Source: a phage
Assembly (NCBI GenBank): GCA_028473545.1
Contig: GCA_028473545.1_4546.1
Length of the DNA stretch: 45,074 bases
Direction: 5' to 3' (one strand)
The translations under genes were made by a program, and so were the position numbers. The notes below the pieces were generated by a model. The model worked only from the letters and a program-made list of their open reading frames with translations. It was not told where the DNA came from and made no database searches. This document shows positions 5,169 through 44,154 of this stretch, piece after piece (within the stretch, counting starts at the first letter, position 1; the number at the start of each line of letters is the position of its first letter).

Positions 5169-5459
5169 ATGGATAAGCTAAACGAGTGGTTATTCGCCCT
5201 CGCGTGTCTTGCAGGTGGCTTCGTTGGCGCTCGCATTCACGGTGAGGCAACGAAAGGGCCGCTAAATTTTGTGTTGTTTATCGTGGTCGGCTTCTTGTGC
5301 GCCGTGTTTGGGGCACCAGCTATTGCCGAGTGGTTTAATCTAACCGGACCGAGAACTGTCGCCGGTCTTGGCTTCGTAACGGCAATCTTCTGGATGCCGG
5401 TCGCCGCCAGAATCCGTGAAGCAATTTCCTCGTTCCGTCTGCCGGGGAATGCAAAATGA
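5169..5459 (+). CDS. Holin-like membrane protein
   Basis: 96 aa with multiple hydrophobic helices; directly upstream of a second small membrane protein and the endolysin. Confidence 0.5.
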   Translation: MDKLNEWLFALACLAGGFVGARIHGEATKGPLNFVLFIVVGFLCAVFGAPAIAEWFNLTGPRTVAGLGFVTAIFWMPVAARIREAISSFRLPGNAK

Positions 5460-5695
5460 TTATCGCCATCCTGTTATTAGTGATCGGGGCTTCGTCGCTG
5501 TATAACGTATACGCGCCATCCGTCCAGGATGGCATTTGCGGACGGGTGCTCTACCTGCTTACAGCAATGACCTGTATTATTGGCCTGATGCAAACGGGGG
5601 ACGTATCGAATACAGTCTGGTCCGTGCTAATCTGGCTATTCGCATTACGCACACTGCGTAATGCTGTTTTAAATGGGGTAAAACATGCGATTTAG
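5456..5695 (+). CDS. Holin/antiholin-like membrane protein
   Basis: 79 aa, very hydrophobic; ATGA start/stop overlap with the upstream gene; precedes the endolysin. Confidence 0.5.
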   Translation: MIIAILLLVIGASSLYNVYAPSVQDGICGRVLYLLTAMTCIIGLMQTGDVSNTVWSVLIWLFALRTLRNAVLNGVKHAI

Positions 5696-6176
5696 TGACA
5701 ACGGTCTAAGATTTACGGCAGCGTGGGAGTCGTTCAGCCCAGTGCCGTATTTCGCGACTAAGAAGGAGCAGGCCCGCGGCTTGTACACCTGGGGCTACGG
5801 TCATACTGGCACTAATCCGCCACAGAGCATTACCCGCGCGGAAGCGCTGGAGCTACTCAAGCGTGATGTGGCGTATGCCGAGAACTGGGTGAACAAGTAC
5901 GCACACCCGAGCATCAATCAGGCGCAATTCGACGCGCTGGTGGATCTGGTAATCAATGCCGGTCAAGGTCCAATCGTACCGGACAACATTGCCAATGACT
6001 TCGATGACGCGGTGCGCCTGGGTGACTGGGCGAAAGTCCGAGCTACGCTGCCGCAGTTCCGCAAGCAAGGCGGGGAAGTGCTCAAGGGTCTTGTCCGTCG
6101 TGCAATCGGCAGACAGGCGCTATTCGATGGTAAGCAGTGGGACGTTGCCGAGAAAATCGGTCGTAACGCGGCATAA
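5685..6176 (+). CDS. Endolysin, T4-lysozyme-like (GH24) muramidase
   Basis: 163 aa; N-terminal E..RL..Y.D..G.WT.GYGHT pattern matches the T4/P22 lysozyme catalytic region; follows the two holin-like genes. Confidence 0.75.
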   Translation: MRFSDNGLRFTAAWESFSPVPYFATKKEQARGLYTWGYGHTGTNPPQSITRAEALELLKRDVAYAENWVNKYAHPSINQAQFDALVDLVINAGQGPIVPDNIANDFDDAVRLGDWAKVRATLPQFRKQGGEVLKGLVRRAIGRQALFDGKQWDVAEKIGRNAA

Positions 6177-6192
6177 TACGAGGAAACACAGT

Positions 6193-6306
6193 ATGTTAAA
6201 AAGTATTCTTGATCATAACGCGGACGCGCTTGCCGCACTGGCTAAAACGGAAGACCCAGGCGCGCGCCATTATCGCGGACACTATCAGTCATGCTGGCGT
6301 CTTTGA
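6193..6306 (+). CDS. Small hypothetical protein (37 aa)
   Basis: ATG at 6193 with aggaaa upstream; below the ORF-track size cutoff. Confidence 0.25.
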   Translation: MLKSILDHNADALAALAKTEDPGARHYRGHYQSCWRL

Positions 6307-10171: not shown

Positions 10172-11692
10172 ATGACCGTTAACGTTGACAACCAGCACCC
10201 ACTCTATGCGCGCATCGCGCAGGAGTGGAAAATGATCCGGGATTGCGTAGCGGGGGAGCGCGCCGTGAAGGCGCGCGGCCCCTTGTACCTGCCACATCCC
10301 GCCAGTGGCGATAATACCGACCCGAAAGCACGGGCGCGATATAAGGCATATAAGCAACGCGCTGTATTCCTGAACGCCACCGCACGCACGCTTAATGCGC
10401 TGTTAGGCGTCGCCTTCGCTAAGCCGGTAAGTCTGGACCTTTCCGGGGCGATGGCTGACCTGATTGATGACGTAGACGGCAGCGGAATGCCACTGCCGCA
10501 ACTCCTGCGCGGTGCTATGTCGGAAGTGCTGCAATCGGGCCGCGCGGGCTTTATGGTGGACTACGACCGCCAGGCTAACTTTGATGAACTGGGTAACGTA
10601 GTGCCGCAGACCGCCGCCGAGATGGCGACGCACCGCCCGCTTATCCGCCTGTATACGGCAGAACAGATCATCAACTGGCGGCAGACCCACGGGATTGACA
10701 CGCTAATCGTGCTGAAGGAAACGGACGAAATCAGCACCGAAGACCCGGACGACTTTGCAAACCACGAAGTAACGATCTGGACTGAATTGCGCATGATTAA
10801 CGGCGCAGCACACGCCCGCCGCTGGTTTTACAACGCAGACACGTCCGAGGTGCAGATGGATTTGCCGCGTGGCTTCACCCGCACCGAGCTTGTGCCGCTG
10901 GTGGATGCTGCCGGTCGAGCGCTTACTCAACTGCCATTTTGCTGGTGCGGTGCGGTGGACAACAACGCAACGCCTGACGCCGCGCCGCTGGCGGATATTG
11001 CATCCATCAACATTAAGCACTACAACGCTGAGGCGGACGTTGCCGAGATCGCGCACATCGTGGGTCAGCCTACCCTTGTCGCCACGGGCTTGACTCAATC
11101 ATGGGCCGACAAAAACCTGAAGGGTGGGATTGCTCTCGGCGCGACTAAGGGCGTTATCCTGGGCCAGAACATGGACGCTAAACTGATTCAGGCCGAGGAG
11201 CGCAACTTGTCTGTTGCACTTTGTGAGCGCCGCGAATTGCAGATGGCTAAACTGGGCGCGGCCCTGGTTGAGAAGGGGACTGCACCAAAGACGGCAACTG
11301 AAGCGGCATACGATGCGCAGACTGACAATAGTATCCTGTCGCTCATTGCCGGTAACGTTGAGAAGGCTTTCAACCGTGCGCTGCAAATCGTCCAGCTATT
11401 CACGGGTGATACCGCGGACCAGCGCGTGACGCTGAACAAGTTCTACACCGAAATCACGGTTGACGCGCAGCTTATGACCGCAATGATGGCTGGTGTTCAG
11501 ACCGGTACGGTCCGACTGGCTGACTTCATCAAGTGGATGATGGCGCAGGGCGTTATCGATGACTCGCAAACCGTAGAGCAGGTGGAAGACGAATTGCGAA
11601 ATCAGAATCCATTGCCTCAAATGTCCCCTGATGCGGTAGAATCTACCGAAGAAGACCCGGATAAGGTAGCGGACAATGGCGAGAACAATTAA
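10172..11692 (+). CDS. Portal protein
   Basis: 506-aa ORF directly after the large terminase with aaggaaac RBS; size and position typical; acidic C-terminus. Confidence 0.7.
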   Translation: MTVNVDNQHPLYARIAQEWKMIRDCVAGERAVKARGPLYLPHPASGDNTDPKARARYKAYKQRAVFLNATARTLNALLGVAFAKPVSLDLSGAMADLIDDVDGSGMPLPQLLRGAMSEVLQSGRAGFMVDYDRQANFDELGNVVPQTAAEMATHRPLIRLYTAEQIINWRQTHGIDTLIVLKETDEISTEDPDDFANHEVTIWTELRMINGAAHARRWFYNADTSEVQMDLPRGFTRTELVPLVDAAGRALTQLPFCWCGAVDNNATPDAAPLADIASINIKHYNAEADVAEIAHIVGQPTLVATGLTQSWADKNLKGGIALGATKGVILGQNMDAKLIQAEERNLSVALCERRELQMAKLGAALVEKGTAPKTATEAAYDAQTDNSILSLIAGNVEKAFNRALQIVQLFTGDTADQRVTLNKFYTEITVDAQLMTAMMAGVQTGTVRLADFIKWMMAQGVIDDSQTVEQVEDELRNQNPLPQMSPDAVESTEEDPDKVADNGENN

Positions 11693-12779
11693 TCAACATA
11701 TGGCGGATCGCATGATTCGCCGTCACATCTTCACCCAGCGCCTGAGCAATGACCAGGCGCGGCGGGTGTTGGCTATGTGGGAGAAGTTCCGACCCACGTT
11801 ACTTGGCAAGCTGACCGAGTTACTTGATGGCAAAAAGTCCATGAATAACAAGGCACTGACCACACTGTTAACGCAAATAGACAAAACCGTCAAAACGGAA
11901 CTGCGCACCGAGTTTAAGGCGCTGGCTGAAAGCCTTCAGGAGTTTGCCGACACCGAGGCTGATTATCTTGCCGATACATTAACGGCAGCGATCCAGCCTG
12001 CGGTAGCCGTACCGGCTGTTGAGGTTGTTGGCGTAGTGACTGGCGCGCAGATTGCGGCCACGGCTATGAAAAACCCGTTCCAGGGAAACACCATGATGCA
12101 ATGGCCTGATTCACTTTCTGAGTGGACCAGGACGCAGATCGGGAATCAGGTGCGCGCTGGATTCATCCAGGGCAAGCCGACTATGGAAATTATCGCGGAC
12201 GTAAAGCGCGCTCTCGGCGGTCGTAGCGCGCAAGCTATCTCAAGTGTTGTTAAGTCCGCAGTAAACCACTATGCGGCGACCGCCCGCGAGTTAATGGTGA
12301 AAGCTAATGACGAAATTCTCGAAGGTCGCCAATGGTTGGCTACATTGGATACGCACACATCACCAATGTGCCAACTACGCGATCGCCTGTTTTATCCTGT
12401 TGACGTCACTCCCGACACCAAAGGAAAGCGCGGCGGGAAAGAGGTGGCTGGATCACAATATGGCGCTGGTCCGGGCAAGCTACATTATTGCTGCCGTTCG
12501 ACGGAGACGTGGAAAGTTAAAGGCATGGAAGATTGGCCCAGTGGTAAGCGTCCGGCACTGAAGGCTGACGCGGGTCGATTGCTGAGTGAGCAGGTCGACG
12601 CGCAGACTGATTTCTTCTCATGGGTGCAGCGCCAGCCGCGCCATATTCTGGAGGAATTATATGGGGTGCAGCGCGCAGACCAGATTATGCGCGGCGTGAA
12701 AGTGCCTAAGATGTTCACCGATACCGGCGAACTAATGACTATTGCACAGCTTAAAAACCGGGGGTTATGGCGTGATTAA
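11676..12779 (+). CDS. Head morphogenesis protein (Mu gpF / SPP1 gp7-like minor head protein)
   Basis: 367-aa ORF overlapping the portal 3' end; position and size typical; product by synteny. Confidence 0.55.
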   Translation: MARTINQHMADRMIRRHIFTQRLSNDQARRVLAMWEKFRPTLLGKLTELLDGKKSMNNKALTTLLTQIDKTVKTELRTEFKALAESLQEFADTEADYLADTLTAAIQPAVAVPAVEVVGVVTGAQIAATAMKNPFQGNTMMQWPDSLSEWTRTQIGNQVRAGFIQGKPTMEIIADVKRALGGRSAQAISSVVKSAVNHYAATARELMVKANDEILEGRQWLATLDTHTSPMCQLRDRLFYPVDVTPDTKGKRGGKEVAGSQYGAGPGKLHYCCRSTETWKVKGMEDWPSGKRPALKADAGRLLSEQVDAQTDFFSWVQRQPRHILEELYGVQRADQIMRGVKVPKMFTDTGELMTIAQLKNRGLWRD

Positions 12780-13080
12780 ATATGCGGCGATCGGACTAGT
12801 TATCGGTCTGGCGGTTGGATTCTGGCAGGGTGATTCCTACCGCACTGGCGTTGTGGCGCAAGCGGCGCAAGAAGCGCAAGCGAAAGCCCAACGGCAGCAA
12901 ACTAAGGTTGTTGAGGGGTCGGTGAAGGCTGAGCAAGCCCGCGACGTGGAATACCGGACTATCACGAAAGAGGTTGTAAAATATGTTACGCGTCCTAACC
13001 GTCCTGATTGTAGTTTTGATGCTGAGCGCGTGCGGATCAAGCAAAGCGCCATCGACGCCGCTAACCGAGTCGGTCTATAG
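12742..13080 (+). CDS. i-spanin-like protein (N-terminal TM helix plus coiled-coil); start may be GTG at 12772
   Basis: Hydrophobic AAIGLVIGLAVGFW then Q/A/K-rich helical region; 3' end overlapped by a lipoprotein ORF in another frame. Confidence 0.4.
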   Translation: MHSLKTGGYGVIKYAAIGLVIGLAVGFWQGDSYRTGVVAQAAQEAQAKAQRQQTKVVEGSVKAEQARDVEYRTITKEVVKYVTRPNRPDCSFDAERVRIKQSAIDAANRVGL

Positions 13081-13213
13081 ACCGCCTTGCACCTTTGAGA
13101 ATGCATCGGCAGATCCAGACGAAGACTTGCTGGTTGATGTTAAAAATATGGAATGCGGGGCTAAGCTAAGGGCGCAAGTGCTGGAGTTGCAGAAAATAAT
13201 TCGGGGGCCGTGA
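12983..13213 (+). CDS. o-spanin-like lipoprotein
   Basis: 76 aa; signal peptide with lipobox LSAC; Pro/Cys-containing mature part; starts inside the preceding ORF in the +1 frame (Rz/Rz1-like overlap). Confidence 0.45.
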   Translation: MLRVLTVLIVVLMLSACGSSKAPSTPLTESVYRPPCTFENASADPDEDLLVDVKNMECGAKLRAQVLELQKIIRGP

Positions 13214-13226
13214 TGGCCCCTTTTTG
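13200..13226 (+). terminator. Rho-independent terminator at a convergent gene junction
   Basis: gggggcc..ggcccc stem followed by ttttt; lies between the plus-strand lipoprotein gene and the minus-strand island. Confidence 0.45.
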
Positions 13227-13230
13227 TTAA

Positions 13231-13746
13231 CTACAAACGCATCGGCATGATAACTAAAAAGGCACCTCCTTTGAACAGCACGCGTGTTGCCTTGTCTACT
13301 CCCTGAAATTCCAGTTTTAATCCCTCAAACTTACGGTCGAACAATTTAGCAATTTTGCAGGCGTCGGATAGGTATGCCCCGTTAAACCCGATAGCCTCCA
13401 CTTTATTGCTGATGAAAGACGTAACTCTTCTCCAGTCTGGAAATAATAGCCCGTCTACAATCTCGATGGGTATGGTAGCTATTAATACGTCTTTACTATC
13501 GAAGAACGCGGCGGAGGTGCCGTCTATGTTGCAGTATTCGAATTTAGTAGGTAAGCGGCTTTTAATTGATACTATTTTACTTTCACCTTCTGGTACAACC
13601 GCAGACCCGCAGAACAAACGGTGACCGTCTGTAGCCACGATGTATCCTTTCTCGTCGAAAAATACACCATTTAGGAAGTATCGGACGTCATTAGTTGCGG
13701 CGCATATCGTAGCGGCTTTAAGATCGGCGTAGTTAACTTTAATCAT
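13231..13746 (-). CDS. Truncated DnaN (beta sliding clamp) homologue, about 171 aa
   Basis: Start at MIKVNYADLK with gaggaa RBS; DVRYFLNGVFF..VATDGHRLF, DGLLFPDWRRV, EAIGFNGAYLSD and C-terminal VIMPMRL match conserved DnaN segments recalled from E. coli (VRYYLNGMLFE..VATDGHRLA, DGRFPDYRRV, EIGFNVSYVLD, VVMPMRL); far shorter than the 366-aa clamp. Confidence 0.6.
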   Translation of the reverse strand: MIKVNYADLKAATICAATNDVRYFLNGVFFDEKGYIVATDGHRLFCGSAVVPEGESKIVSIKSRLPTKFEYCNIDGTSAAFFDSKDVLIATIPIEIVDGLLFPDWRRVTSFISNKVEAIGFNGAYLSDACKIAKLFDRKFEGLKLEFQGVDKATRVLFKGGAFLVIMPMRL

Positions 13747-13803
13747 TTTAATTTCCTCGTGGTTATGTAGACGATAATTCGGGGCCATTACAGCCCCCTT
13801 TTG

Positions 13804-14568
13804 TTAGCGCGGAATACCGCAGATTTCGTTTAACGTCTTCACATCCAGCGCTACTGCCGTTGACTTCGGCTTGTCCGGGTATGGAATGAATTGTTCAACT
13901 TCAGGCCACGCCGCGATCAGCTTCTTGTCAGTATTGTGCATATCCAGCACGCCGGTAACGGTTAGTTTGAACGCGTCATACTTCGCACGCAATTCACGGC
14001 GGGCCTTGTCGTTGTGGTCCAGGCGCTTGCAGAAATCATGCTCTGCCGGGTAGTCTACGCGACCGCGTGGTAGATATATCGGCAGCGCTTTTCCGTCCTC
14101 ATCCACTTCACATACTGACGCGAGCATAATTTCCTCGTACCCCGGTACAATATCGCTAACGTCAGGCGCGAGCGTATTCATATATTTTTCTTCCCAGTAT
14201 CCGCGGTGCTGGCGGTAGCGGTATCCGTCGCCGCTCATATGCAGGGTACGGATGTTACCGCCTGCGTTGATTTCGAAAGTGGAGCAGTAAACGCGTCCAA
14301 TGCCTTTCTGACGGTCTTTGTTATAGCTATACGTCGCCTTGTCGGTGTAAACGCTGACGCCGTACATCTGCGACTGGTTATCGCGGATTTCTGCGATATA
14401 TGCGCGTAGCTCGGCGAACGTGTGAATGCCTTTTGGCATACAGTCCAGCGTAATTGCGTACGCCAGGTCGCGAGAGTCCATCATGATTGATTTGGCTTCA
14501 GTCGCGATTTCGTGGTCGCGCAGGATGTTAGCCAGAATCTGGTTTTTAATGTCTTTTGTCAGTCTCAT
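13804..14568 (-). CDS. Hypothetical protein (254 aa), island gene 2
   Basis: ORF with gagga RBS; no motif recognised. Confidence 0.55.
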   Translation of the reverse strand: MRLTKDIKNQILANILRDHEIATEAKSIMMDSRDLAYAITLDCMPKGIHTFAELRAYIAEIRDNQSQMYGVSVYTDKATYSYNKDRQKGIGRVYCSTFEINAGGNIRTLHMSGDGYRYRQHRGYWEEKYMNTLAPDVSDIVPGYEEIMLASVCEVDEDGKALPIYLPRGRVDYPAEHDFCKRLDHNDKARRELRAKYDAFKLTVTGVLDMHNTDKKLIAAWPEVEQFIPYPDKPKSTAVALDVKTLNEICGIPR

Positions 14569-14607
14569 TTGTGTTTCCTCATTGTTGGGGCTTTCGCCCC
14601 ATTTGGT

Positions 14608-14922
14608 TTAGTTAAACTTGATGTTGCCACCGATGGAGGTTAAGCGAGCGCATACTGCTTCAACGGCATCAACGCACATGAAATCGTTAAAGGCTTCGAC
14701 CAGGGCGTTGATGAAAGATGCCGGAACCAGACCACAAGCCGGATTATCGAAGGTTGCGGAATTGATCGCAGCTTTCGCAGCTTCAGTAGCGTTCATGCTC
14801 TGGCACAGATTCAGCGCTTCAGCGTTACGCATCGCGTGAAAGGTAAAGGTATTGGCAACGGCAGCTTTATTGAAACGGGTCATTGCTGCATCTACTGGAG
14901 TTGCTACGGTCATGTTATTCAT
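14608..14922 (-). CDS. Hypothetical protein (about 104 aa), island gene 3
   Basis: Start taken at MNNMTV with aaggaaaac RBS; an upstream ATG at 14937 is possible. Confidence 0.45.
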   Translation of the reverse strand: MNNMTVATPVDAAMTRFNKAAVANTFTFHAMRNAEALNLCQSMNATEAAKAAINSATFDNPACGLVPASFINALVEAFNDFMCVDAVEAVCARLTSIGGNIKFN

Positions 14923-14944
14923 TTTGTTTTCCTTCATATCTCTG

Positions 14945-14975
14945 TTGGTGTGCAACCAATATAGTGCAACCAATA
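14945..14975 (-). promoter_or_regulatory. Tandem ATTGGTTGCA boxes in the divergent intergenic region
   Basis: On the minus strand ATTGGTTGCActatATTGGTTGCACACCAACAGAG lies immediately upstream of the island start codon; the last 18 nt match the leader of the 3250 gene. Confidence 0.4.
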
Positions 14976-25749: not shown

Positions 25750-26357
25750 CCACATTTAAATTGTACGGCGTCTTAGGACGTCGTTTTGGTAAAGTGCATA
25801 AGCTGGAATGTTTCACACCTGGCGAGGGTATCACCGGCCTATGCGTGAAGTTACCAGGCTTACAGGACTTTCTAATGTCGGCCCACCTGGGAAACATGAT
25901 GTTTAAGGTGCGCAAGGGTAATCACACAATGACCGGCTACGACGAGTTAGGGGAGTTCCACGGCGACCGCGTAGTTACCATCGCGCCGGTTATGACGGGT
26001 GCTAAAAGCGGACTGGGCCAATTGCTGGCTGGCGTAGCTATCGTGGTGGCGTCGTTCTACACCGGCGGGCTTGCCGCTGCCGCTTTCGGTGCTTCCGCGG
26101 CGACCGCTGCCGCTATCGGAACGGCGACGTTTTCGTTCGGTATGTCGCTTGCGCTTGGCGGTGCTATGCAACTGCTGTCACCGCAACCGAAAGGATTGCA
26201 GACACGGCAGGACGTGGATAACAAGGCGTCGTATGCGTTCGGCGGGCCGGTAAACACTACCGCGCAAGGTACAGCACTTGGTGTATTATGGGGCGAGCGT
26301 GAGATCGGCGGCGCTATTATTTCAGCCGGAATTGTAACCGAGGATTTGAACGAATGA
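25740..26357 (+). CDS. Tail assembly protein (lambda gpI-like)
   Basis: 205 aa; Gly/Ala-rich hydrophobic segment; position between the K-like and J-like genes. Confidence 0.6.
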   Translation: MAMTTFKLYGVLGRRFGKVHKLECFTPGEGITGLCVKLPGLQDFLMSAHLGNMMFKVRKGNHTMTGYDELGEFHGDRVVTIAPVMTGAKSGLGQLLAGVAIVVASFYTGGLAAAAFGASAATAAAIGTATFSFGMSLALGGAMQLLSPQPKGLQTRQDVDNKASYAFGGPVNTTAQGTALGVLWGEREIGGAIISAGIVTEDLNE

Positions 26358-29300
26358 CGATTGTATACGACGTCACGGGTCATAAAGGCGGCGGTGGCAA
26401 ACAGCACACCCCACAGGAGACGCCTGATAGCCTGCATTCGCTGGCTAAAATCCGCATCTTGCTCGCACTGGGCGAGGGCGAATTTGAAGGCATTCCCGAC
26501 CCTAACGAATTACGGCAGCGTGTATACCTGGACGGCACACCGATCCAGAACGCCGACCTGTCGGATAACTTCCCCGGCGCGCGTGTGGAGTTCCGCCCCG
26601 GCACGCAGCACCAGGATGTGATTCACGGTTTTTCAGCGGTGGAAAGCGAGCAAACAGTAGGCGTAAAACTGGAACAGGGCCAGCCGTGGGTCCGCCAGAT
26701 TTCGGATACCAGTCTGGATGCGGTGCGCATTCGAATCGGTATTCCGGCCCTGTACACCAACGAAGATAATGGCGACCTGGTGGGCGGGCGCATCGACTAT
26801 AAAATTGTTGTGTATACAGACAATGCTGATCCGCGGGAGTTTACATTCGCTGCCGTTGGTAAAACAATGTCGCTGTATGAGCGCGATCACCGCATCGAAT
26901 TACCGCCGAACGTGAATACCGGCTGGCGCGTGGAGGTGCACCGCACAACGGCAGACTCCACATCGGCAAAAGTGGTCAACGATATTCAGGTACAATCCAT
27001 TACTGAGATTATCGACGCCCGCCTGCGATACCCGCTAACCGCGCTGTTGTTCGTGGAGTTCGATGCTAAGGCGTTCCAGAACATCCCGCGTGTGTCCATC
27101 AAGTGCAAAGGCCGCAAAGTGCTGGTGCCGAACAACTACGACCCGATTAATCATACCTATTCTGGTGACTGGGACGGCACATTTAAACGCGCCTGGACGG
27201 ATAACCCTGCGTGGCACTGGTACGATATTTGTATTACTGAGCGCTTCGGCCTCGGTCGTCGTGTCAAGCCACAAATGCTAAACCGTTACGCACTCTACCA
27301 GATTTCGCAGCGCTGCGATCAGATGGTCAGTGACGGCAACGGCGGTCAGGAAATCCGATTTAAGAATGATATGTACATTCAGTCGCAGACCGACGCCTGG
27401 ACCGTGCTGAAGGATTTAGCGGCTATCTTTGCGGGCATGACCTGGTGGGGCAACCAGATGTTGAATATCGTCAGTGACCAGCCTGTCGCAGCGGTATCGC
27501 ATACTATCACCAACGCCTCGGTCATTGATGGTCGATTCGACTACGCATCGGGAAGCCAGAAAACTCGGTATTCCACGTTCTCGGTAGCCTACGGCAACCC
27601 GAAGAACCACTATGATGACGCCATCGCAACGGGTCAACGTGTCGAACTGGTGCGCCGCCATAAGATTAACCGCCTTGATATCACGGCGATCGGCTGTACG
27701 CGAGAATCTGAAGCGCAACGCCGCGGGCACTGGGCGCTAATCTCCAACCAGCTTGACCAGCAAGTCAGCTTTAAGGTTGGCATGGAGGGGTTATTCTTTA
27801 TTCCGGGGAGCGTAGTCGCGATCGCAGATACTAACATTTCTGGCGGCTTCGAGACACGCGGCGGACGCCTGTTGTCAGATCCAGGCACGCGCACCGTGCT
27901 GAACACGGACAGCGAAATCACGTTCCGCCCTGGTGATAAATTCCTGGTGCGCACCGATAGCGGTAATGTGGAGACTCGCGAGATTGCCAGCGTCAACGGC
28001 AACCAGGTCACGCTAAAAACCGCACTGGACTCCGACCCGATTCCCGATCAGCCGTTTTGCGTTGATGGCGATGATATCCAGTTGCAGAAGTTCCGCATCA
28101 CAGACCTGGAATATGACGACGCTACCAGCACTTTTTCGGTGCGCGGGATTGAGTACAACGATAGCAAATATGATGCCGTTGATAATGGCGCGCGTCTTGA
28201 TCCGGGTATCTTCACTCAAGTGCCGGACGGCGTGATGAAGGGGCCAGAATCCGTTACTATCACCCCGTCGCAGATTTCATCGCAAGGCCAGCTAATCACC
28301 AACGTAGATATTGTTTTTCCGCCGGTGAAGGATGCCGTTGTGTACGAAATCCAGTGGCGACGTACCAGCTTGCAGAATCTGGAAGTACAGTGGGGCAACG
28401 ACTGGGTTAACATCCCCCGCACGGCGTCGAACGGCGCGCACATCCCGAACGTGTTTTCTGGTAACTACCAGGCACGCGTCCGCGCTATCGGTATGGGCGA
28501 GATTTCATCCCCGTGGGTGTCATCCGAAATCACGCCGGTCGAGGGCCGTCTTGGCGGGCTAAACGCGCCAATCATTACCAACGCGATTTCGGGCCTTCAT
28601 CAAATTTTGTGGAAGTGGAATCACAACAACGCCGCGACGGATATTTCGTATACCGAGCTTGAAGTGCGCAAGCTGGGTGAGACTGAATGGAAATTCTTGA
28701 CCAACGTCCCATATCCGGGGTCGGACTATGCGCAAACGTCGCTGGAATTCGGGATCTACCAGCAGTTGCGCGCACGCGTAGCGGATAAAATCGGCAACCT
28801 GTCGGACTGGTCAGACCCGTTTGACGGTCAGGTGAGTGACAAAGTTGACGAGTACATGCAGGGGCTTGATGACGAGTTCTTGACTTCCGAGGACGGTAAA
28901 CACTTCCAGGAAGCAATCGACACCATTCCACAAGGCATTTACGAGGCCATGCTCACCGACGCGCAGCAGTTGTTTAACGCCCGCTCCGAGTATCAAGGGA
29001 TTTATGCGGAAATCAAGGTGGCGTACAACGTTGCGGTGGACGCAAACGAGGCCGTAGCGCAACTGGAAACGCTGATCGGCACGCGCCTTGACGATGCGGA
29101 AGCGTCAATCCACACGTTGCAGACTGCGCAAAGCACGCACGAACAAGCGTTCGCCCAGTATCAACAAACTGTTGCCGCTAAGTTCGGTCAGCAGTCCGCA
29201 GCGATCGAGCAGAAGATGACGTCTTCGTTTAACCATGCTGGCGGTAGCGCCACCTACAGCCTTAAAGCTGGCGTGACGTATAACGGGACTTACTATGATG

Positions 29301-29704
29301 CCGGTATGCAGCTTTCCGTTGTGGCGGAAGGTGGCGCGGTTAAATCTCGCATCGCGTTCAAGGCGGACCAGTTCTACATCATGCACCCGTCGAATGGGTC
29401 GCTTTCGTCCGCGTTTATCGTCGACGGCGGTCAGGTGTACATTGACACGGCGCGCATCAAGAATGCGTCCATCAACTTCGCACAGATCACGGACACGCTG
29501 CAATCCAATAACTGGAATCCGGGTAACAGCGGCTGGCGAATCGCGAAGGATGGCGGGGCGGAGTTCAACAACGTAACGGTACGCGGCAACTTGTTCGCGA
29601 CTACGGGTAATTTCGGATTCTCCGGCGGGTCCGTTACGATCGACGCAACGGGCGTCAACGTGCCATTACCTGGAGGGGGAAGGGTTAAAGTCGGGACGTG
29701 GTAA
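26354..29704 (+). CDS. Tail tip / central fiber protein (lambda gpJ-like)
   Basis: 1116 aa; ATGA overlap with the I-like gene; size and position. Confidence 0.8.
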   Translation: MTIVYDVTGHKGGGGKQHTPQETPDSLHSLAKIRILLALGEGEFEGIPDPNELRQRVYLDGTPIQNADLSDNFPGARVEFRPGTQHQDVIHGFSAVESEQTVGVKLEQGQPWVRQISDTSLDAVRIRIGIPALYTNEDNGDLVGGRIDYKIVVYTDNADPREFTFAAVGKTMSLYERDHRIELPPNVNTGWRVEVHRTTADSTSAKVVNDIQVQSITEIIDARLRYPLTALLFVEFDAKAFQNIPRVSIKCKGRKVLVPNNYDPINHTYSGDWDGTFKRAWTDNPAWHWYDICITERFGLGRRVKPQMLNRYALYQISQRCDQMVSDGNGGQEIRFKNDMYIQSQTDAWTVLKDLAAIFAGMTWWGNQMLNIVSDQPVAAVSHTITNASVIDGRFDYASGSQKTRYSTFSVAYGNPKNHYDDAIATGQRVELVRRHKINRLDITAIGCTRESEAQRRGHWALISNQLDQQVSFKVGMEGLFFIPGSVVAIADTNISGGFETRGGRLLSDPGTRTVLNTDSEITFRPGDKFLVRTDSGNVETREIASVNGNQVTLKTALDSDPIPDQPFCVDGDDIQLQKFRITDLEYDDATSTFSVRGIEYNDSKYDAVDNGARLDPGIFTQVPDGVMKGPESVTITPSQISSQGQLITNVDIVFPPVKDAVVYEIQWRRTSLQNLEVQWGNDWVNIPRTASNGAHIPNVFSGNYQARVRAIGMGEISSPWVSSEITPVEGRLGGLNAPIITNAISGLHQILWKWNHNNAATDISYTELEVRKLGETEWKFLTNVPYPGSDYAQTSLEFGIYQQLRARVADKIGNLSDWSDPFDGQVSDKVDEYMQGLDDEFLTSEDGKHFQEAIDTIPQGIYEAMLTDAQQLFNARSEYQGIYAEIKVAYNVAVDANEAVAQLETLIGTRLDDAEASIHTLQTAQSTHEQAFAQYQQTVAAKFGQQSAAIEQKMTSSFNHAGGSATYSLKAGVTYNGTYYDAGMQLSVVAEGGAVKSRIAFKADQFYIMHPSNGSLSSAFIVDGGQVYIDTARIKNASINFAQITDTLQSNNWNPGNSGWRIAKDGGAEFNNVTVRGNLFATTGNFGFSGGSVTIDATGVNVPLPGGGRVKVGTW

Positions 29705-29708
29705 ATGA

Positions 29709-29735
29709 GAAGGGGCCATCCGGCCCCTTTTTTAA
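29709..29735. terminator. Bidirectional rho-independent terminator
   Basis: ggggcc-atcc-ggcccc hairpin flanked by tttttt (plus) and T-rich sequence on the minus side; at a convergent gene junction; near-identical copy at 32533-32560. Confidence 0.5.
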
Positions 29736-30706
29736 TACATGTTAGGTATGACGAGTAACGGGGTTGGGACGGCTATGTTGCGGTTAGGCATCTGGAATTG
29801 CTGCCGTGAGTAGTTACCGATTACGCGATTACGCGCCGCACTAACCACGTTGCCCGCCATGCGTATCCCGTTCATTCGAACGTGGTTGTAGCCGCTGTTG
29901 TTCTCAATGAGCGCGCCGGTATATGAAAGCTGTACGAGGCTATTACCGATATTCTGACCGCCGGTGCCGATATTAATTACCGAATTGAGCACAAACGGCT
30001 TGTTAACGGTCGAGAACGTGACCTGCCCCTGGTTGTTCGTCATGGTGATACCAGTCCCCGGTGATGGAGGCGTATTGTTGAAGATAACCAGATCCAAGTC
30101 CACTTCGGCCCCGACGTCATCAATCCCGCCATAAGACGAATTGCGGACGATGATACTACTACCATCGAAGCCTACCGATACGTTGCCATTATCCCAGCGC
30201 GCGAACGGGATACCGCCCACAGGCAAAGGCATACTACCGTTCACGTGCACGCGCTGCGCGTAGCGGCAGGTCATTAACCGGGACACGTTGGAAATCGCGG
30301 TGAAGTCTGTCGAGTTCGCCACCAGTAAGCCCGCATTGCGTGACCCCACCGGCAGCACTTCCATAATTATACCAGCCCATTGCGGGAGGCCGCTGTATGC
30401 GTTATGCGCGTCCGCGCCTCGAAGGATAATTCCACTATCCCCGTTGCGCTGTACCGACGTCACGTAGAACGGGTCGGGGAGAACCAGCGTCTGGTCGAAC
30501 ACCTCAAGCACTTCTACCGGGCGCGTGAGTGCAACGACAAGGTCCGACCCTGGTGTTAGCGGGGTATTAATGGTCAGCGTCTTGTCGGACTGGCAGCGCT
30601 GATCAAACGTAGTGCAGTATGACGGAGCGCGCAAACCGGCAGTTATCTCCATAATCGGTCGTCCGTCGTTGTAGTCGATGAGTATTCCAGCGCCCATTAT
30701 TACCAC
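29732..30706 (-). CDS. Putative receptor-binding / tail accessory protein (GTG start)
   Basis: 324-aa antisense ORF between the J-like and tail-fiber genes; Gly/Asn/Ser/Thr-rich; start codon abuts the upstream lipoprotein stop. Confidence 0.45.
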   Translation of the reverse strand: MVIMGAGILIDYNDGRPIMEITAGLRAPSYCTTFDQRCQSDKTLTINTPLTPGSDLVVALTRPVEVLEVFDQTLVLPDPFYVTSVQRNGDSGIILRGADAHNAYSGLPQWAGIIMEVLPVGSRNAGLLVANSTDFTAISNVSRLMTCRYAQRVHVNGSMPLPVGGIPFARWDNGNVSVGFDGSSIIVRNSSYGGIDDVGAEVDLDLVIFNNTPPSPGTGITMTNNQGQVTFSTVNKPFVLNSVINIGTGGQNIGNSLVQLSYTGALIENNSGYNHVRMNGIRMAGNVVSAARNRVIGNYSRQQFQMPNRNIAVPTPLLVIPNMY

Positions 30707-30921
30707 TCCCGTGATTTAACAGATACAGTGCCTGAGAAATTGCCGTCGCTATCGGCAGATAGGCCCGTGAAGCGCATGTCCACGGCCCCGGCAGGGACTT
30801 TTTGCCCGTCAACGTAGCGTAACATGCAGCTACCGTAAGCAACCGTAATGCAATCGCCGTTGTTGCGTTCTACAGCACAACCGGACAAAAGGACCGCACA
30901 AATCATAATTAAAGTTTTCAT
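30700..30921 (-). CDS. Small lipoprotein (candidate Llp/Cor-like superinfection exclusion protein)
   Basis: Start at MKTLIMICAVLLSGC with aggag RBS; lipobox LSGC; 73 aa; adjacent to the putative receptor-binding gene. Confidence 0.5.
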   Translation of the reverse strand: MKTLIMICAVLLSGCAVERNNGDCITVAYGSCMLRYVDGQKVPAGAVDMRFTGLSADSDGNFSGTVSVKSREW

Positions 30922-31002: not shown

Positions 31003-32529
31003 ATGGCAGCGGGTACTATCTTATTAACCAATAACAGCCGGTCAGTAACGGGGACCGGTACGACGTTTTCGGCGTTCAAAGCCGGTGATTTCCTTTCTGT
31101 CGTAGTGGGGCAAGTCCCCTACACTATCGCGATTGAATCTATCGAAAGCAACACCGGGCTTACTTTGGTGCTGCCGTTTGACGGCCCAACGGCATCCGGC
31201 ATCGCATGGGATGGCGTTGCGCGCGATACCATGTCGCTGGCAACGATGGGCGTAACAGTCCAGGCACAGAAAGCACTGCGTATGCTTATTGCGGACGAGA
31301 ACAACTGGCGTGCAATCTTCGGCGACGCTGAAGAAATCACAGTTACGTTACCGAACGGCACAGTGATGCAGGGTATGTCGTGGGGCTACCTGTCGCAGCT
31401 AATGAAGCAGATCGACCCGGTGGAAATGCTCAACCTGCAACAACAAGCCGCCGCATCTGAGGTCGCAGCGAAAGGATACCGCGACGAGGCCGAAGGCTTC
31501 AAGAACGATACTAATACCATCAAGACGCAAACCAACCAGATTAAGACTGATACGCAGGCGATCCACGACGCCACCAATACGATCAAGACGCAAACCGACC
31601 AGATTAAGACCGATACGCAGGCCATCAAGGACCAGACCAACCAGATTAAGACTGACACTGGCGTTATTCGAGATCAGGCCAACACGGCGAAGACTGACGC
31701 ACAAGCGGCCCGAGATGCAGCGCAGGGATACCGCGACGAAGCCGAAGGCTTCAAAAACTCAATCGACCCCACTAAGTTCATGCAGAAGTCGCAGAACCTG
31801 GCGGACGTTGCCGACAAGTACACCGCGCGCAACATTCTTGGGGTGGGCGATGACAGTTACGTTAAACACGCAACATTACGCCTGAACGGTGGCGAATCAT
31901 TAACATTCAATGAAGTGGAGGCTAACGGCTTAATTCTATCAAACGCCTCGATGGGAATCGACAATTGGGTAGGCTTCACCATGCATAAATGGTACGCCGA
32001 CTGGACACGCGCAGGAATTGTGCGTGCGGGTGACTCCCACTTGTCAGACTACCGCATCCACGTGTGGAAGAATGGGGATACTGAGGCGCTATTCCGCTTC
32101 CTGCCGGACGGGCGTCTGATTCAGGGTAACGGCGGCAACCCATCGTCGGCGGAGTTTCAGAAAGCACCGCTATCAGACCGGGACGTGAAGAAAGAAATCC
32201 AATACACGGACGGCGCGGAAAGTTACAACCGAGTACGGCAATGGCTACCAGCAATGTTTAAGTATAAGGAGTCGGACGTACAGCGTTACGGCCTTATCGC
32301 GCAGGACCTGGCCATGATTGACCCGGAATATGTGCACTTGCTGCCAGGACACGGAATCTACGAGGACGTTGTTGTTGGCGTGGACGAGGAAGGGAACGAG
32401 ATTGTCGAGCAAAAGGAGATCGGATACACCGACGATGTGCTGTCGCTTGACAGTAACGTGCTGTTGATGGATCTATGCGCCGCCTTCGTTCACCTGTTGC
32501 AGAAAGTAGAAAAGCTGGAAGGTAAGTAA
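31003..32529 (+). CDS. Tail fiber protein with C-terminal S74-type intramolecular chaperone domain
   Basis: 508 aa; internal repeats TNTIKTQTNQIKTDTQAI; C-terminal segment GLIAQDLAMIDPEYVH resembles the endosialidase-chaperone domain. Confidence 0.65.
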   Translation: MAAGTILLTNNSRSVTGTGTTFSAFKAGDFLSVVVGQVPYTIAIESIESNTGLTLVLPFDGPTASGIAWDGVARDTMSLATMGVTVQAQKALRMLIADENNWRAIFGDAEEITVTLPNGTVMQGMSWGYLSQLMKQIDPVEMLNLQQQAAASEVAAKGYRDEAEGFKNDTNTIKTQTNQIKTDTQAIHDATNTIKTQTDQIKTDTQAIKDQTNQIKTDTGVIRDQANTAKTDAQAARDAAQGYRDEAEGFKNSIDPTKFMQKSQNLADVADKYTARNILGVGDDSYVKHATLRLNGGESLTFNEVEANGLILSNASMGIDNWVGFTMHKWYADWTRAGIVRAGDSHLSDYRIHVWKNGDTEALFRFLPDGRLIQGNGGNPSSAEFQKAPLSDRDVKKEIQYTDGAESYNRVRQWLPAMFKYKESDVQRYGLIAQDLAMIDPEYVHLLPGHGIYEDVVVGVDEEGNEIVEQKEIGYTDDVLSLDSNVLLMDLCAAFVHLLQKVEKLEGK

Positions 32530-42300: not shown

Positions 42301-42543
42301 TCAAGCACTTTTATTAAAAAGATTTCGTGTCACGTAGTTGGTGGCGTTCTCGATCCAGCTTAACGGCGGGCGGTCGATGTGCTTCTCAACCCAGTCTACG
42401 GCAACGTCACTGTAGCCATCGTCCAGCCAGCGGGATGGATGGCGAATCATCCAGGCCACCATTAACACGCCTTGCACGCAATGCAGGATAAACCCCAGCG
42501 CGCCGAGCATAATCATCAATACGAATGCAAATACCTTATTCAT
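42301..42543 (-). CDS. Small membrane protein
   Basis: 80 aa; hydrophobic FAFVLMIMLGALGFILHCVQGVLMVAWMI. Confidence 0.4.
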   Translation of the reverse strand: MNKVFAFVLMIMLGALGFILHCVQGVLMVAWMIRHPSRWLDDGYSDVAVDWVEKHIDRPPLSWIENATNYVTRNLFNKSA

Positions 42544-43966
42544 TGCTTAAGTCCTCGTCAGTAGCTTCAGACCACGCGGGGCGCGGGTCATCGATTGGTG
42601 CCAACACCGGTTTAGCCGGTGCGCGCGTGATTTTATCACACAATTTCGCCCACACTTTCGGTTTCTCGTCCTTCAATACCTTCTCGGCATCGGTAGGACT
42701 GAGTAATGTTTCTTTGTACATTACATCGCGCTTGATCCGGGCCTTCGTGAAGATTTCAATCACTTCGCTCTCATCCGCCCACTTGCGATTACCTTCCTTA
42801 CCGGCAACCATCTTGAGGCCCAGCGATTCGCCATCACCCGCCATCACCGCCTTGAATACTGCGGACTCGATAGCCTTGATGTGCTGACGCATTGCGTCGA
42901 GGCCTTCGTATGCATTACGCAGTTCCGCCGCGCTCATAGCGCCATTGGATTCTTCCTTATAGCCGCGCTTCGCACGTCGTGCCGCTTTCCGGGCTTCGCG
43001 GGCTGTATTGCGGTCGTGGTTGGCGCATTCTTCTTCTGTCGCCACGCTCACGTCGTCCGCCAGGTCGTCGTCTGTTGCCGTTGGTGGGGTCATCGTGTCG
43101 ATGGCGGCCTTAGCGCGGGCACTACACTGATCCGCAAATCGGCACCACTGACAGGCATCGACGCTCGGTCGGAAGTCGGCGCGGGTGAGTCCCTTCTTAC
43201 CGCGGGAATACGCGTCCAGTGCGGCAATAGCACGCTTGGATGCAAACTTAGCGAATATCTCCAGCGCTTCCACTGTAATATCCCACTCCGACGCCCCGCC
43301 GCAATACGGCTGGAAGATTACCAGGCGAACGGTCGTAATGTCGTACATGGTTTGCAGCTTGCGCAGCAGGCCCAGCGCGTACAACATAAGCTGTTTGTTT
43401 TCTTTCGCCTCGACCTTATGTCGCCCGGTCTTCAGGTCGCCAACAATAAGCATGTACGTGCCGTCGGTCTTCTTCATGACCATGACCATATCGGCAGTGC
43501 CAAACGTCTTCACCCTGTTGCTGTCTATCTCGAAGCCGGGGTGCAAGATGCGGGTGAGATCGGCGCGCATTTCAAGCTGGACAAACTCCGCTACTTCAAG
43601 GAGCGGTCGCCAGTGGTCGATGTACGCGTCGCACTGTTTCACCATATCGTCGTTGACCAGTACGCCGCCTTTCGGTGCTTTCGGGTGGGCCTTTACCGGT
43701 CCCTTACCTTCGTTCTCGACGTAGCACCCTTTGTACGTCTTCGCGGATAGCTTCTTCTCACCGGCAATGATGCGGTTTAACACTACTTCAGATACGGTGT
43801 GCATACTCGTACCGTTAATCGCCGCTTGCCCGGACTCATTCGGGATACCTTTTTCGACTACCAGGGCGGCAGGACACCCCATCCATTTTTTAGATCCCGA
43901 TGGCCCAAGTAATGAGTGCTCCGTATTGCTGCCGGATTGCGTTTTGCGCTTCGGTTTAATAGCCAT
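42536..43966 (-). CDS. PD-(D/E)xK nuclease, Cas4/RecB-like (DUF2800-like) with C-terminal Cys cluster
   Basis: 476 aa; N-terminal LLGPSGSKKWMGCPAA; CQWCRFADQC cluster; paired with the gp2.5-like SSB as in many phage replication modules. Confidence 0.55.
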   Translation of the reverse strand: MAIKPKRKTQSGSNTEHSLLGPSGSKKWMGCPAALVVEKGIPNESGQAAINGTSMHTVSEVVLNRIIAGEKKLSAKTYKGCYVENEGKGPVKAHPKAPKGGVLVNDDMVKQCDAYIDHWRPLLEVAEFVQLEMRADLTRILHPGFEIDSNRVKTFGTADMVMVMKKTDGTYMLIVGDLKTGRHKVEAKENKQLMLYALGLLRKLQTMYDITTVRLVIFQPYCGGASEWDITVEALEIFAKFASKRAIAALDAYSRGKKGLTRADFRPSVDACQWCRFADQCSARAKAAIDTMTPPTATDDDLADDVSVATEEECANHDRNTAREARKAARRAKRGYKEESNGAMSAAELRNAYEGLDAMRQHIKAIESAVFKAVMAGDGESLGLKMVAGKEGNRKWADESEVIEIFTKARIKRDVMYKETLLSPTDAEKVLKDEKPKVWAKLCDKITRAPAKPVLAPIDDPRPAWSEATDEDLSNE

Positions 43967-44154
43967 TATTCCACCCTTGAAAATTGAGCAATGTAATAAT
44001 CGTGTTTAACATTGGCGCGCTTCGCGGCTTCGTTCATGGTTGATGCCAGTCCGCGGGCTTGCGTCCAGCAACAATTCCAGTTTTGATTCATAACAATTTC
44101 TGGTTGCTCGTCGCCGGTAATACGGCAGCGAAATAAAACAAAGAATATAGTCAT
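43966..44154 (-). CDS. Hypothetical small protein
   Basis: Start at MTIFFVLF; ATG shares one base with the upstream stop (TAATG). Confidence 0.3.
   Translation of the reverse strand: MTIFFVLFRCRITGDEQPEIVMNQNWNCCWTQARGLASTMNEAAKRANVKHDYYIAQFSRVE

What the first reader, a model, noticed from the sequence alone, without database searches (positions are those of the whole stretch)
12742..13213. Rz/Rz1-like overlapping spanin pair located 6.5 kb from the holin/endolysin cassette
An ORF with an N-terminal TM helix and coiled-coil, plus a lipoprotein ORF (lipobox LSAC) that starts inside it in the +1 frame, have the hallmarks of an i-spanin/o-spanin pair. They sit between the head morphogenesis gene and the antisense island, far from the holin and endolysin genes at 5.2-6.2 kb. 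A split lysis module is unusual. Alternatively the pair is a membrane/lipoprotein exclusion system.
Basis: inference. Interest (0 to 1): 0.4.

Follow-up and report, generated by a model that had tools for sequence, protein, structure and literature searches.

The report
Known overlapping spanin pair of Dhillonvirus
These two overlapping genes are the standard inner- and outer-membrane spanin pair of a Dhillonvirus coliphage; the pair and its position far from the holin and endolysin genes are already catalogued and annotated in close relatives.

Summary
A 102-aa ORF (12772-13080, probable GTG start; 12742 is only the first in-frame TTG) has an N-terminal hydrophobic anchor. A 76-aa ORF (12983-13213) starts inside it in the +1 frame and has the signal peptide and lipobox LSAC.

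The window is a Dhillonvirus, 99.8% identical to phage vB_EcoS-CHD5UKE2 over the 2 kb compared. Both proteins hit PHROG 'Rz-like spanin' families (1e-34 and 1e-25). Phages SO-1, EP23, TheodorHerzl and PaulFeyerabend carry the same genes at the same place, annotated as i-spanin and o-spanin. Kongari et al. 2018 already list the Dhillonviruses EP23, HK578, JL1, SSL-2009a and SO-1 in the 'Jersey' overlapped spanin family.

In 17 relatives both frames are intact, the lipobox and periplasmic cysteines are conserved, and each frame shows third-codon-position variation.

No other spanin candidate exists in the window. The only other good lipoprotein is Cor-like and lies at the tail-fibre locus.

The split from the holin-holin-endolysin cassette (5169-6176) is the rule in Dhillonvirus and Guernseyvirinae, and is stated in print for phage Schulenberg. 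T4 is the classic precedent.

Function rests on homology. No member of this family has, to my knowledge, been tested experimentally. A coiled coil could not be shown. Verdict: already known, low interest.

The parts
12772..13080 (+). i-spanin gene. 102 aa, GTG start overlapping the stop of the head-morphogenesis gene. N-terminal membrane anchor at residues ~3-19, a periplasmic domain of about 80 aa, and a single Cys at position 80.
   Evidence: ORF and sequence. phrog_2536 'Rz-like spanin' E=1.1e-34. 88-98% identical genes annotated i-spanin or Rz-like spanin in relatives. Intact in 17 relatives with Cys80 conserved. Codon-position pattern.
12983..13213 (+). o-spanin gene. 76 aa, +1 frame, 98-nt overlap with the i-spanin gene. 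Signal peptide with lipobox LSAC (Cys17), Gly at +2, a Pro-rich linker, a C-terminal helix, and Cys36 and Cys58.
   Evidence: phrog_5672 E=1.2e-25 and phrog_1267 E=2.5e-12, both 'Rz-like spanin'. 100% identical protein annotated o-spanin in phage PaulFeyerabend. Lipobox and both Cys conserved in 17 relatives. Codon-position pattern. Low-confidence model with helices 2-16 and 50-73.
13203..13221 (+). GC-rich hairpin followed by TTTTTGTT, overlapping the o-spanin stop codon. Terminator-like end of the terminase-portal-head morphogenesis-spanin transcription unit. It is also scored on the minus strand, facing the convergent gene at 13231-13788.
   Evidence: 8 pairs, 6 G-C, T tail. (-16.1 kcal/mol, z = -2.67).
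5169..5459 (+). Holin 1 (96 aa), a partner in lysis encoded 7.3 kb upstream of the spanins.
   Evidence: phrog_2359 holin E=1.5e-32. The same gene is annotated holin in TheodorHerzl.
5456..5695 (+). Holin 2 or antiholin (79 aa). Overlaps holin 1 by 4 nt.
   Evidence: phrog_2508 holin E=1.4e-24. (holin/antiholin pair in Schulenberg).
5685..6176 (+). Endolysin (163 aa, lysozyme family). No spanin follows it.
   Evidence: PF00959 E=1.5e-21. phrog_7 E=8e-36. ORFs downstream lack a TMD or lipobox.

Best explanation
The two genes encode the phage's two-component spanin, the last-acting part of its lysis system.

Shown by sequence: the 102-aa protein has a single N-terminal hydrophobic anchor and a largely helical, positively charged tail of about 80 aa. 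The 76-aa protein has a lipoprotein signal peptide (LSAC, Gly at +2). The genes overlap by 98 nt in the +1 frame. They lie at the end of the late terminase-portal-head operon, with the i-spanin start overlapping the stop of the head-morphogenesis gene.

Inferred from the established lambda Rz/Rz1 model, and not tested for this family:
- The i-spanin inserts in the inner membrane with its C-terminus in the periplasm.
- The o-spanin is cleaved by signal peptidase II, lipidated at Cys17, and sorted by Lol to the inner leaflet of the outer membrane.
- The C-terminal regions of the two proteins bind across the periplasm through the peptidoglycan mesh.
- Homodimers are covalently stabilised through the conserved cysteines: Cys80 in the i-spanin, Cys36 and Cys58 in the o-spanin.
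- After the holins (5169-5695) release the endolysin (5685-6176) and the murein is degraded, the complexes are free to collapse and fuse the inner and outer membranes, which releases the virions.

The physical separation from the holin and endolysin genes is the ancestral gene order of this phage group, not a special feature of this genome.
For: - PHROG spanin families: phrog_2536 E=1e-34 for the i-spanin; phrog_5672 E=1e-25 and phrog_1267 E=2.5e-12 for the o-spanin.
- Phages SO-1, EP23, TheodorHerzl, PaulFeyerabend, Gluttony and YD-2008.s annotate the syntenic genes as spanins.
- Kongari et al. 2018 (PMC6139136) list EP23, HK578, JL1, SSL-2009a and SO-1 in the Jersey overlapped i- and o-spanin families and describe them as a shorter subfamily with two helices.
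- The window proteins are 88-91% identical to those of SO-1 and EP23. They are 38-39% identical to the curated Kagunavirus Sciku spanins, with the cysteines aligned.
- Both ORFs are intact, and the lipobox and cysteines conserved, in 17 relatives down to 77% DNA identity.
- Each frame shows purifying selection.
- A whole-window scan found no other spanin candidate.
- The same split arrangement with the same PHROG set occurs in Jerseyvirus SeF1, Schulenberg, Sciku and TheodorHerzl.
Against: - No experimental test exists for any member of this family that I could find. Kongari et al. name only lambda, T7, P2, T4 and T1 as tested systems.
- There are no hits to Pfam families at all, so sequence membership in lambda Rz/Rz1 is not shown. 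NCBIfam P2_Rz1 scores 14.4 bits against a cutoff of 27.
- The i-spanin is short (about 80 periplasmic residues).
- A crude heptad test found no coiled-coil periodicity.
- The structure models are low-confidence, with pLDDT about 56.
- The TMD hydropathy is borderline on the Kyte-Doolittle scale.
Confidence: 0.9

Rival explanations
1. The pair is a membrane protein plus lipoprotein superinfection-exclusion or receptor-blocking system (Cor/Llp-like), not a lysis function.
For: Small phage lipoproteins can block receptors (general knowledge of T5 Llp and phi80/N15 Cor). The pair is not next to the endolysin. No experiment exists for this family.
Against: - The top profile hits are spanin families. 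There is no Cor or Llp hit for either protein and no PADLOC hit.
- A different lipoprotein (30700-30921, minus strand) has a weak Cor-family hit. It lies beside a 'moron' membrane protein at the tail-fibre locus, which is the usual place for exclusion genes.
- Without this pair the phage would have no spanin candidate.
- The pair is conserved in the core late operon of hundreds of virulent phages of two taxa, whereas accessory exclusion genes are typically variable.
- The conserved periplasmic cysteines fit the published spanin rule.
Confidence: 0.04
2. Only the 102-aa ORF is a real gene. The 76-aa overlapping ORF is a chance open frame.
For: Some records annotate only one spanin or call the genes hypothetical, for example CHD5UKE2, rolling, AV129 and vB_EcoS_P78.
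Against: - The ORF, its ATG, the AAGAGG ribosome-binding site, the lipobox and two cysteines are conserved in 17 relatives.
- 133 nt of it lie outside the i-spanin. There, variation is concentrated at its own third codon position: 29 of 44 sites against 7 of 43 at position 2.
- It hits two PHROG families and has homologues at 35-45% identity in Guernseyvirinae.
Confidence: 0.01
3. The pair is a spanin whose outer-membrane disruption mechanism differs from the lambda coiled-coil collapse model. The reason would be that its i-spanin is unusually short and lacks a detectable heptad pattern.
For: The periplasmic domain is about 80 aa. No 3.5-residue periodicity was found. Kongari et al. note beta-strand elements in the linkers of this family.
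Against: My heptad test is crude and the structure models are low-confidence. Two helices separated by a linker is the lambda-like layout.
Confidence: 0.05

Closest known systems
'Jersey' overlapped two-component spanin family, EP23-HK578-JL1-SSL-2009a-SO-1 subfamily (Kongari et al. 2018, PMC6139136); PHROGs phrog_2536 and phrog_5672/1267
   Same: The proteins are the same: 88-91% identity to SO-1 and EP23, and a 100% identical o-spanin in PaulFeyerabend. The overlapped +1 architecture, length, cysteine positions and position after the head-morphogenesis gene all match.
   Different: Nothing substantive. The i-spanin C-terminus is the 102-aa variant (as in SO-1) rather than the 109-aa variant of EP23 and TheodorHerzl.
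Guernseyvirinae spanins (Jersey, K1G, Sciku, Schulenberg)
   Same: Homologous at 38-39% identity with aligned cysteines. Same overlapped architecture. Same location inside the head-gene module, apart from the holin/antiholin-endolysin cassette.
   Different: The Guernseyvirinae i-spanin is longer (128 aa against 102). Extra genes lie between the head-morphogenesis gene and the spanins. The overlap is longer (155 nt in Jersey; Sciku's gene coordinates also give 155 nt, against 98 nt here).
Lambda Rz/Rz1
   Same: Same functional class and protein types: a type II inner-membrane protein plus an outer-membrane lipoprotein in the +1 frame. Periplasmic cysteines are present. The presumed mechanism is the same (established knowledge).
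   Different: No detectable sequence homology: neither protein hits any Pfam family at E<=0.1. The architecture is overlapped rather than embedded. The i-spanin is much shorter. The genes are not adjacent to the endolysin.
T4 PseT.3/PseT.2
   Same: A two-component spanin encoded far from the holin (t) and endolysin (e). It was shown to complement lambda RzRz1.
   Different: Separated rather than overlapped genes. Unrelated sequence family. The T4 i-spanin has no cysteine.

Membership tests
Two-component spanin (functional class, Young-lab definition) | i-spanin: a small protein with a single N-terminal transmembrane domain and a periplasmic, largely alpha-helical C-terminal domain | tested here: met
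   The only hydrophobic segment is residues 1-19 (KD19 = 1.52, borderline). Helices 5-72 and 84-99 appear in a low-confidence model. No dedicated topology predictor was available.
Two-component spanin (functional class, Young-lab definition) | Periplasmic coiled-coil in the i-spanin | tested here: inconclusive
   A crude 3.5-residue hydrophobic-moment test on residues 24-72 was no better than shuffles. The model is helical but pLDDT is 56.
Two-component spanin (functional class, Young-lab definition) | o-spanin: a small lipoprotein with a lipobox and an outer-membrane sorting signal (no Asp at +2) | tested here: met
   MLRVLTVLIVVLMLSAC|GS. Lipobox LSAC, with +2 Gly and +3 Ser. Conserved as [LM][ST]AC in 17 relatives. 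Actual lipidation was not tested.
Two-component spanin (functional class, Young-lab definition) | o-spanin gene embedded in, overlapping, or immediately following the i-spanin gene | tested here: met
   98-nt overlap in the +1 frame.
Two-component spanin (functional class, Young-lab definition) | At least one periplasmic cysteine available for an intermolecular disulfide | tested here: met
   i-spanin Cys80, o-spanin Cys36 and Cys58. All are invariant in 17 relatives and align with the Sciku cysteines.
Two-component spanin (functional class, Young-lab definition) | Required for outer-membrane disruption; complements lambda Rz/Rz1 mutants | not testable with these tools
   An experiment is needed. 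No published test of this family was found.
Jersey spanin sequence family (Kongari 2018) / phrog_2536 + phrog_5672 | Significant sequence similarity of both proteins to listed members | tested here: met
   PHROG E=1e-34 and 1e-25. 88-91% identity to the listed members SO-1 and EP23. 38-39% identity to a Kagunavirus pair.
Lambda Rz (Pfam Phage_lysis) / Rz1 lipoprotein sequence families | A profile match above threshold | tested here: not met
   Neither protein has a Pfam hit to these families at E<=0.1. NCBIfam P2_Rz1 LysC scores only 14.4 bits against a cutoff of 27.
Unimolecular spanin (T1 gp11 type) | A single protein with an N-terminal lipobox and a C-terminal transmembrane domain | tested here: not met
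   The o-spanin C-terminus (LELQKIIRGP) is hydrophilic. The other lipoprotein in the window (30700-30921) also lacks a C-terminal TMD.
Cor/Llp-type superinfection-exclusion lipoprotein | Sequence similarity to Cor/Llp families, or location beside the receptor-binding genes | tested here: not met
   No such PHROG hit for 12983-13213 and no PADLOC hit. A different lipoprotein at the tail-fibre locus has the weak Cor hit.

The most novel reading that the evidence does not exclude
The fixed placement of the spanin pair at the 3' end of the packaging and head-morphogenesis operon is conserved across Dhillonvirus and Guernseyvirinae, and the i-spanin start is apparently translationally coupled to the head-morphogenesis gene. 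This could reflect a functional requirement, for example dosing or timing spanin synthesis with capsid assembly rather than with the holin. Alternatively, this unusually short i-spanin without a detectable heptad repeat may disrupt the outer membrane in a way that differs from the lambda coiled-coil collapse model.
Probability: 0.08. Interest if true: 0.35.

Novelty: already known. Interest (0 to 1): 0.06.

Why it matters
It matters little beyond annotation quality. The closest GenBank record (vB_EcoS-CHD5UKE2) and several other Dhillonvirus records still label these genes 'hypothetical protein', or annotate only one of the two. [quoted passage not shown] The family is large, with more than 600 phage records, including many candidates for phage therapy. 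To my knowledge it has never been tested experimentally, so a single complementation experiment would validate many annotations.

Tried and rejected
- Pfam gave nothing for either protein except a sub-threshold DUF6919 hit.
- NCBIfam gave only sub-threshold lipoprotein signal-peptide hits and P2_Rz1 at 14.4 bits.
- PADLOC gave no hits, so there is no support for a defence or exclusion reading.
- The PDB sequence search returned only chance hits to ribosomal protein S5, E=0.3.
- AlphaFold single-sequence models of both proteins have pLDDT about 56. I used them only for secondary-structure tendency, and ran no fold search because low-confidence models give meaningless matches.
- The crude heptad and hydrophobic-moment test gave no coiled-coil signal.
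- A second spanin next to the endolysin was rejected. ORFs between 6176 and 6756 lack a TMD or lipobox, the whole-window lipobox scan found nothing there, and TheodorHerzl has nothing annotated there.
- The lipobox hit at 43767-44009 (+) was rejected as spurious. It lies inside the minus-strand gene 42536-43966 and has no PHROG hit.

Full report
**What is there**

The region holds two overlapping plus-strand ORFs.

The first runs mechanically from a TTG at 12742 to 13080. The plausible start is the GTG at 12772. It lies 7 nt after a GGGGG run and overlaps the TAA stop of the 367-aa head-morphogenesis gene (11676-12779). This start gives a 102-aa protein, MIKYAAIGLVIGLAVGFWQG..., and is the one annotated in phages SO-1 and TheodorHerzl. 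It is conserved in all 17 relatives I extracted. Its only hydrophobic segment is the N-terminal 19 residues, with a Kyte-Doolittle mean of 1.52. The remaining 80 or so residues are hydrophilic, rich in A, Q, R and V, have a net charge of +5, and contain one cysteine, Cys80.

The second ORF is 12983-13213, starts with ATG and encodes 76 aa. AAGAGG lies 9 nt upstream. It starts inside the first ORF in the +1 frame with a 98-nt overlap, and begins MLRVLTVLIVVLMLSAC|GSS. That is a textbook lipoprotein signal peptide with lipobox LSAC and Gly at +2. The mature part of 59 residues is Pro-rich and carries Cys36 and Cys58.

A GC-rich hairpin with a T-tract at 13203-13221 overlaps the stop codon and closes the transcription unit.

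**Is it more than chance**

I took 17 distinct related sequences, at 77-95% DNA identity, from IMG/VR and GenBank.
- Both ORFs are open in every one.
- The lipobox is [LM][ST]AC in every one.
- All three periplasmic cysteines are invariant.

Outside the overlap, variable sites fall mainly on the third codon position of the frame concerned. For the i-spanin the counts at positions 1/2/3 are 23/11/45. For the o-spanin they are 13/7/29. Both frames are therefore coding and under purifying selection.

**Identity of the genome**

The window is a Dhillonvirus. Over the 2 kb searched (12000-14000) it is 99.8% identical to Escherichia phage vB_EcoS-CHD5UKE2, with 157 related phage records.

**What the pair is**

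- Against PHROGs, the 102-aa protein matches phrog_2536 'Rz-like spanin' (E=1.1e-34). The 76-aa protein matches phrog_5672 (E=1.2e-25) and phrog_1267 (E=2.5e-12), both 'Rz-like spanin'.
- The syntenic genes are annotated 'Rz-like spanin' in RefSeq SO-1 and EP23, and 'i-spanin'/'o-spanin' in the BASEL phage TheodorHerzl.
- Phage PaulFeyerabend encodes a 100% identical o-spanin, annotated as such.
- The BASEL authors state that they annotated spanins with the SpaninDataBase of Kongari et al..
- That catalogue (PMC6139136) lists EP23, HK578, JL1, SSL-2009a and SO-1, which are all Dhillonviruses, in both the i-spanin and the o-spanin 'Jersey' families of the overlapped class. It discusses them as a shorter subfamily with two helices and conserved cysteines.
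- tblastn finds the pair in more than 600 phage records: Dhillonvirus, Jerseyvirus, Kagunavirus and a few others.
- The window proteins are 38-39% identical to the curated Sciku (Kagunavirus) spanins, with the cysteines aligned.

**The 'split lysis module'**

The window has two holin genes (5169-5459, phrog_2359; 5456-5695, phrog_2508) and a lysozyme-type endolysin (5685-6176, PF00959). Nothing spanin-like follows the endolysin.

A whole-window scan for lipoprotein signals found only three candidates:
- the o-spanin itself;
- a 73-aa lipoprotein at 30700-30921 (minus strand), discussed below;
- a spurious hit inside a minus-strand gene.

The same split arrangement is seen elsewhere:
- In TheodorHerzl, the order is holin-holin-endolysin, then a 380-aa protein and the terminase genes, with the spanins after the head-morphogenesis gene.
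- In Guernseyvirinae, the homologous spanins sit between the head-morphogenesis and scaffold genes in Sciku and SE124_2FR.
- Jerseyvirus SeF1 has the same PHROG set, with the spanins at gp9/gp10 and holin-holin-endolysin at gp63-65.
- T4 pseT.3/pseT.2 is the classic experimentally validated precedent for spanins located away from the holin and endolysin.

The split is therefore real, at 6.6 kb, but it is the conserved and already noted gene order of this lineage.

**The exclusion-system alternative**

Neither protein hits PADLOC, and neither hits a Cor-type or other exclusion PHROG. The better candidate for an exclusion function is the other lipoprotein at 30700-30921 (minus strand). It matches phrog_4281 and has a weak hit to the Cor family phrog_1119. 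Next to it is a 324-aa 'moron' membrane protein (29732-30706, phrog_1265). Both lie between the tail-tip and tail-fibre genes. That lipoprotein has no C-terminal TMD, so it is not a unimolecular spanin.

**Mechanism**

Shown here: the protein types, the signals, the gene overlap, the conservation and the family membership.

Inferred from the lambda Rz/Rz1 paradigm:
- type II insertion of the i-spanin in the inner membrane;
- lipidation of the o-spanin and its Lol-dependent sorting to the outer membrane;
- C-terminal heterotypic binding across the periplasm;
- disulfide-linked homodimers;
- membrane fusion once the endolysin has removed the murein.

Weak points:
- No member of this family appears to have been tested experimentally. 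Kongari et al. name lambda, T7, P2, T4 and T1 as the tested systems, and a literature search found nothing further.
- There is no sequence relationship to lambda Rz/Rz1 in Pfam. The NCBIfam P2 LysC hit is sub-threshold.
- The i-spanin is short.
- Single-sequence AlphaFold models are low-confidence, with pLDDT about 56. They show i-spanin helices 5-72 and 84-99. For the o-spanin they show a signal helix, a disordered linker at 17-49 and a helix at 50-73.
- A crude heptad test gave no coiled-coil periodicity.

**Verdict**

The finding is already known and ordinary. Its only practical value is to correct records, including the closest relative's, that still call these genes hypothetical.

Noticed in passing
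window 29732-30921 (- strand): A 73-aa lipoprotein (30700-30921, MKTLIMICAVLLSGC...; phrog_4281, weak Cor superinfection-exclusion hit phrog_1119 E=6e-4) overlaps by 7 nt a 324-aa membrane protein (29732-30706, phrog_1265 'moron'). Both are antisense, between the tail-tip gene (26354-29704) and the tail-fibre gene (31003-32529). This is a likely superinfection-exclusion or receptor-masking pair.
   Followed up: partly
window 13231-14973 (- strand): An antisense island lies directly after the spanins. It holds a 185-aa protein resembling a fragment of the DNA polymerase III beta clamp (phrog_3007; PF02767 sub-threshold), an Nmad5 'nucleotide modification associated domain 5' protein (13804-14568, PF18757 E=1e-54), and a phrog_24635 protein (14608-14973). 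In SO-1, TheodorHerzl and EP23 the alignment stops at about 13765, inside the clamp-like gene just short of its start (13788), so the Nmad5 part is a variable insert.
   Followed up: partly
window 13060-13080 and relatives L001, L008-L019: The i-spanin C-terminus is polymorphic. It is 102 aa (...AANRVGL) here and in SO-1-like phages, and 109 aa (...AANGVGTATAVQVR) in EP23- and TheodorHerzl-like phages. This fits the published remark that the extreme C-terminus of this family is variable.
   Followed up: yes
window ~6193-6306 (+): A small ORF lies 16 nt after the end of the endolysin gene (MLKSILDHNADALAALAKTEDPGAR...). It matches phrog_11068, of unknown function (E=6e-15). It has no TMD or lipobox and is not annotated in TheodorHerzl. 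It sits where a spanin would be in a canonical lysis cassette.
   Followed up: no
window 5169-5695 (+): Two consecutive small membrane-protein genes (phrog_2359 and phrog_2508, both 'holin') overlap by 4 nt ahead of the endolysin. In the related phage Schulenberg this arrangement is described as a holin/antiholin pair.
   Followed up: no
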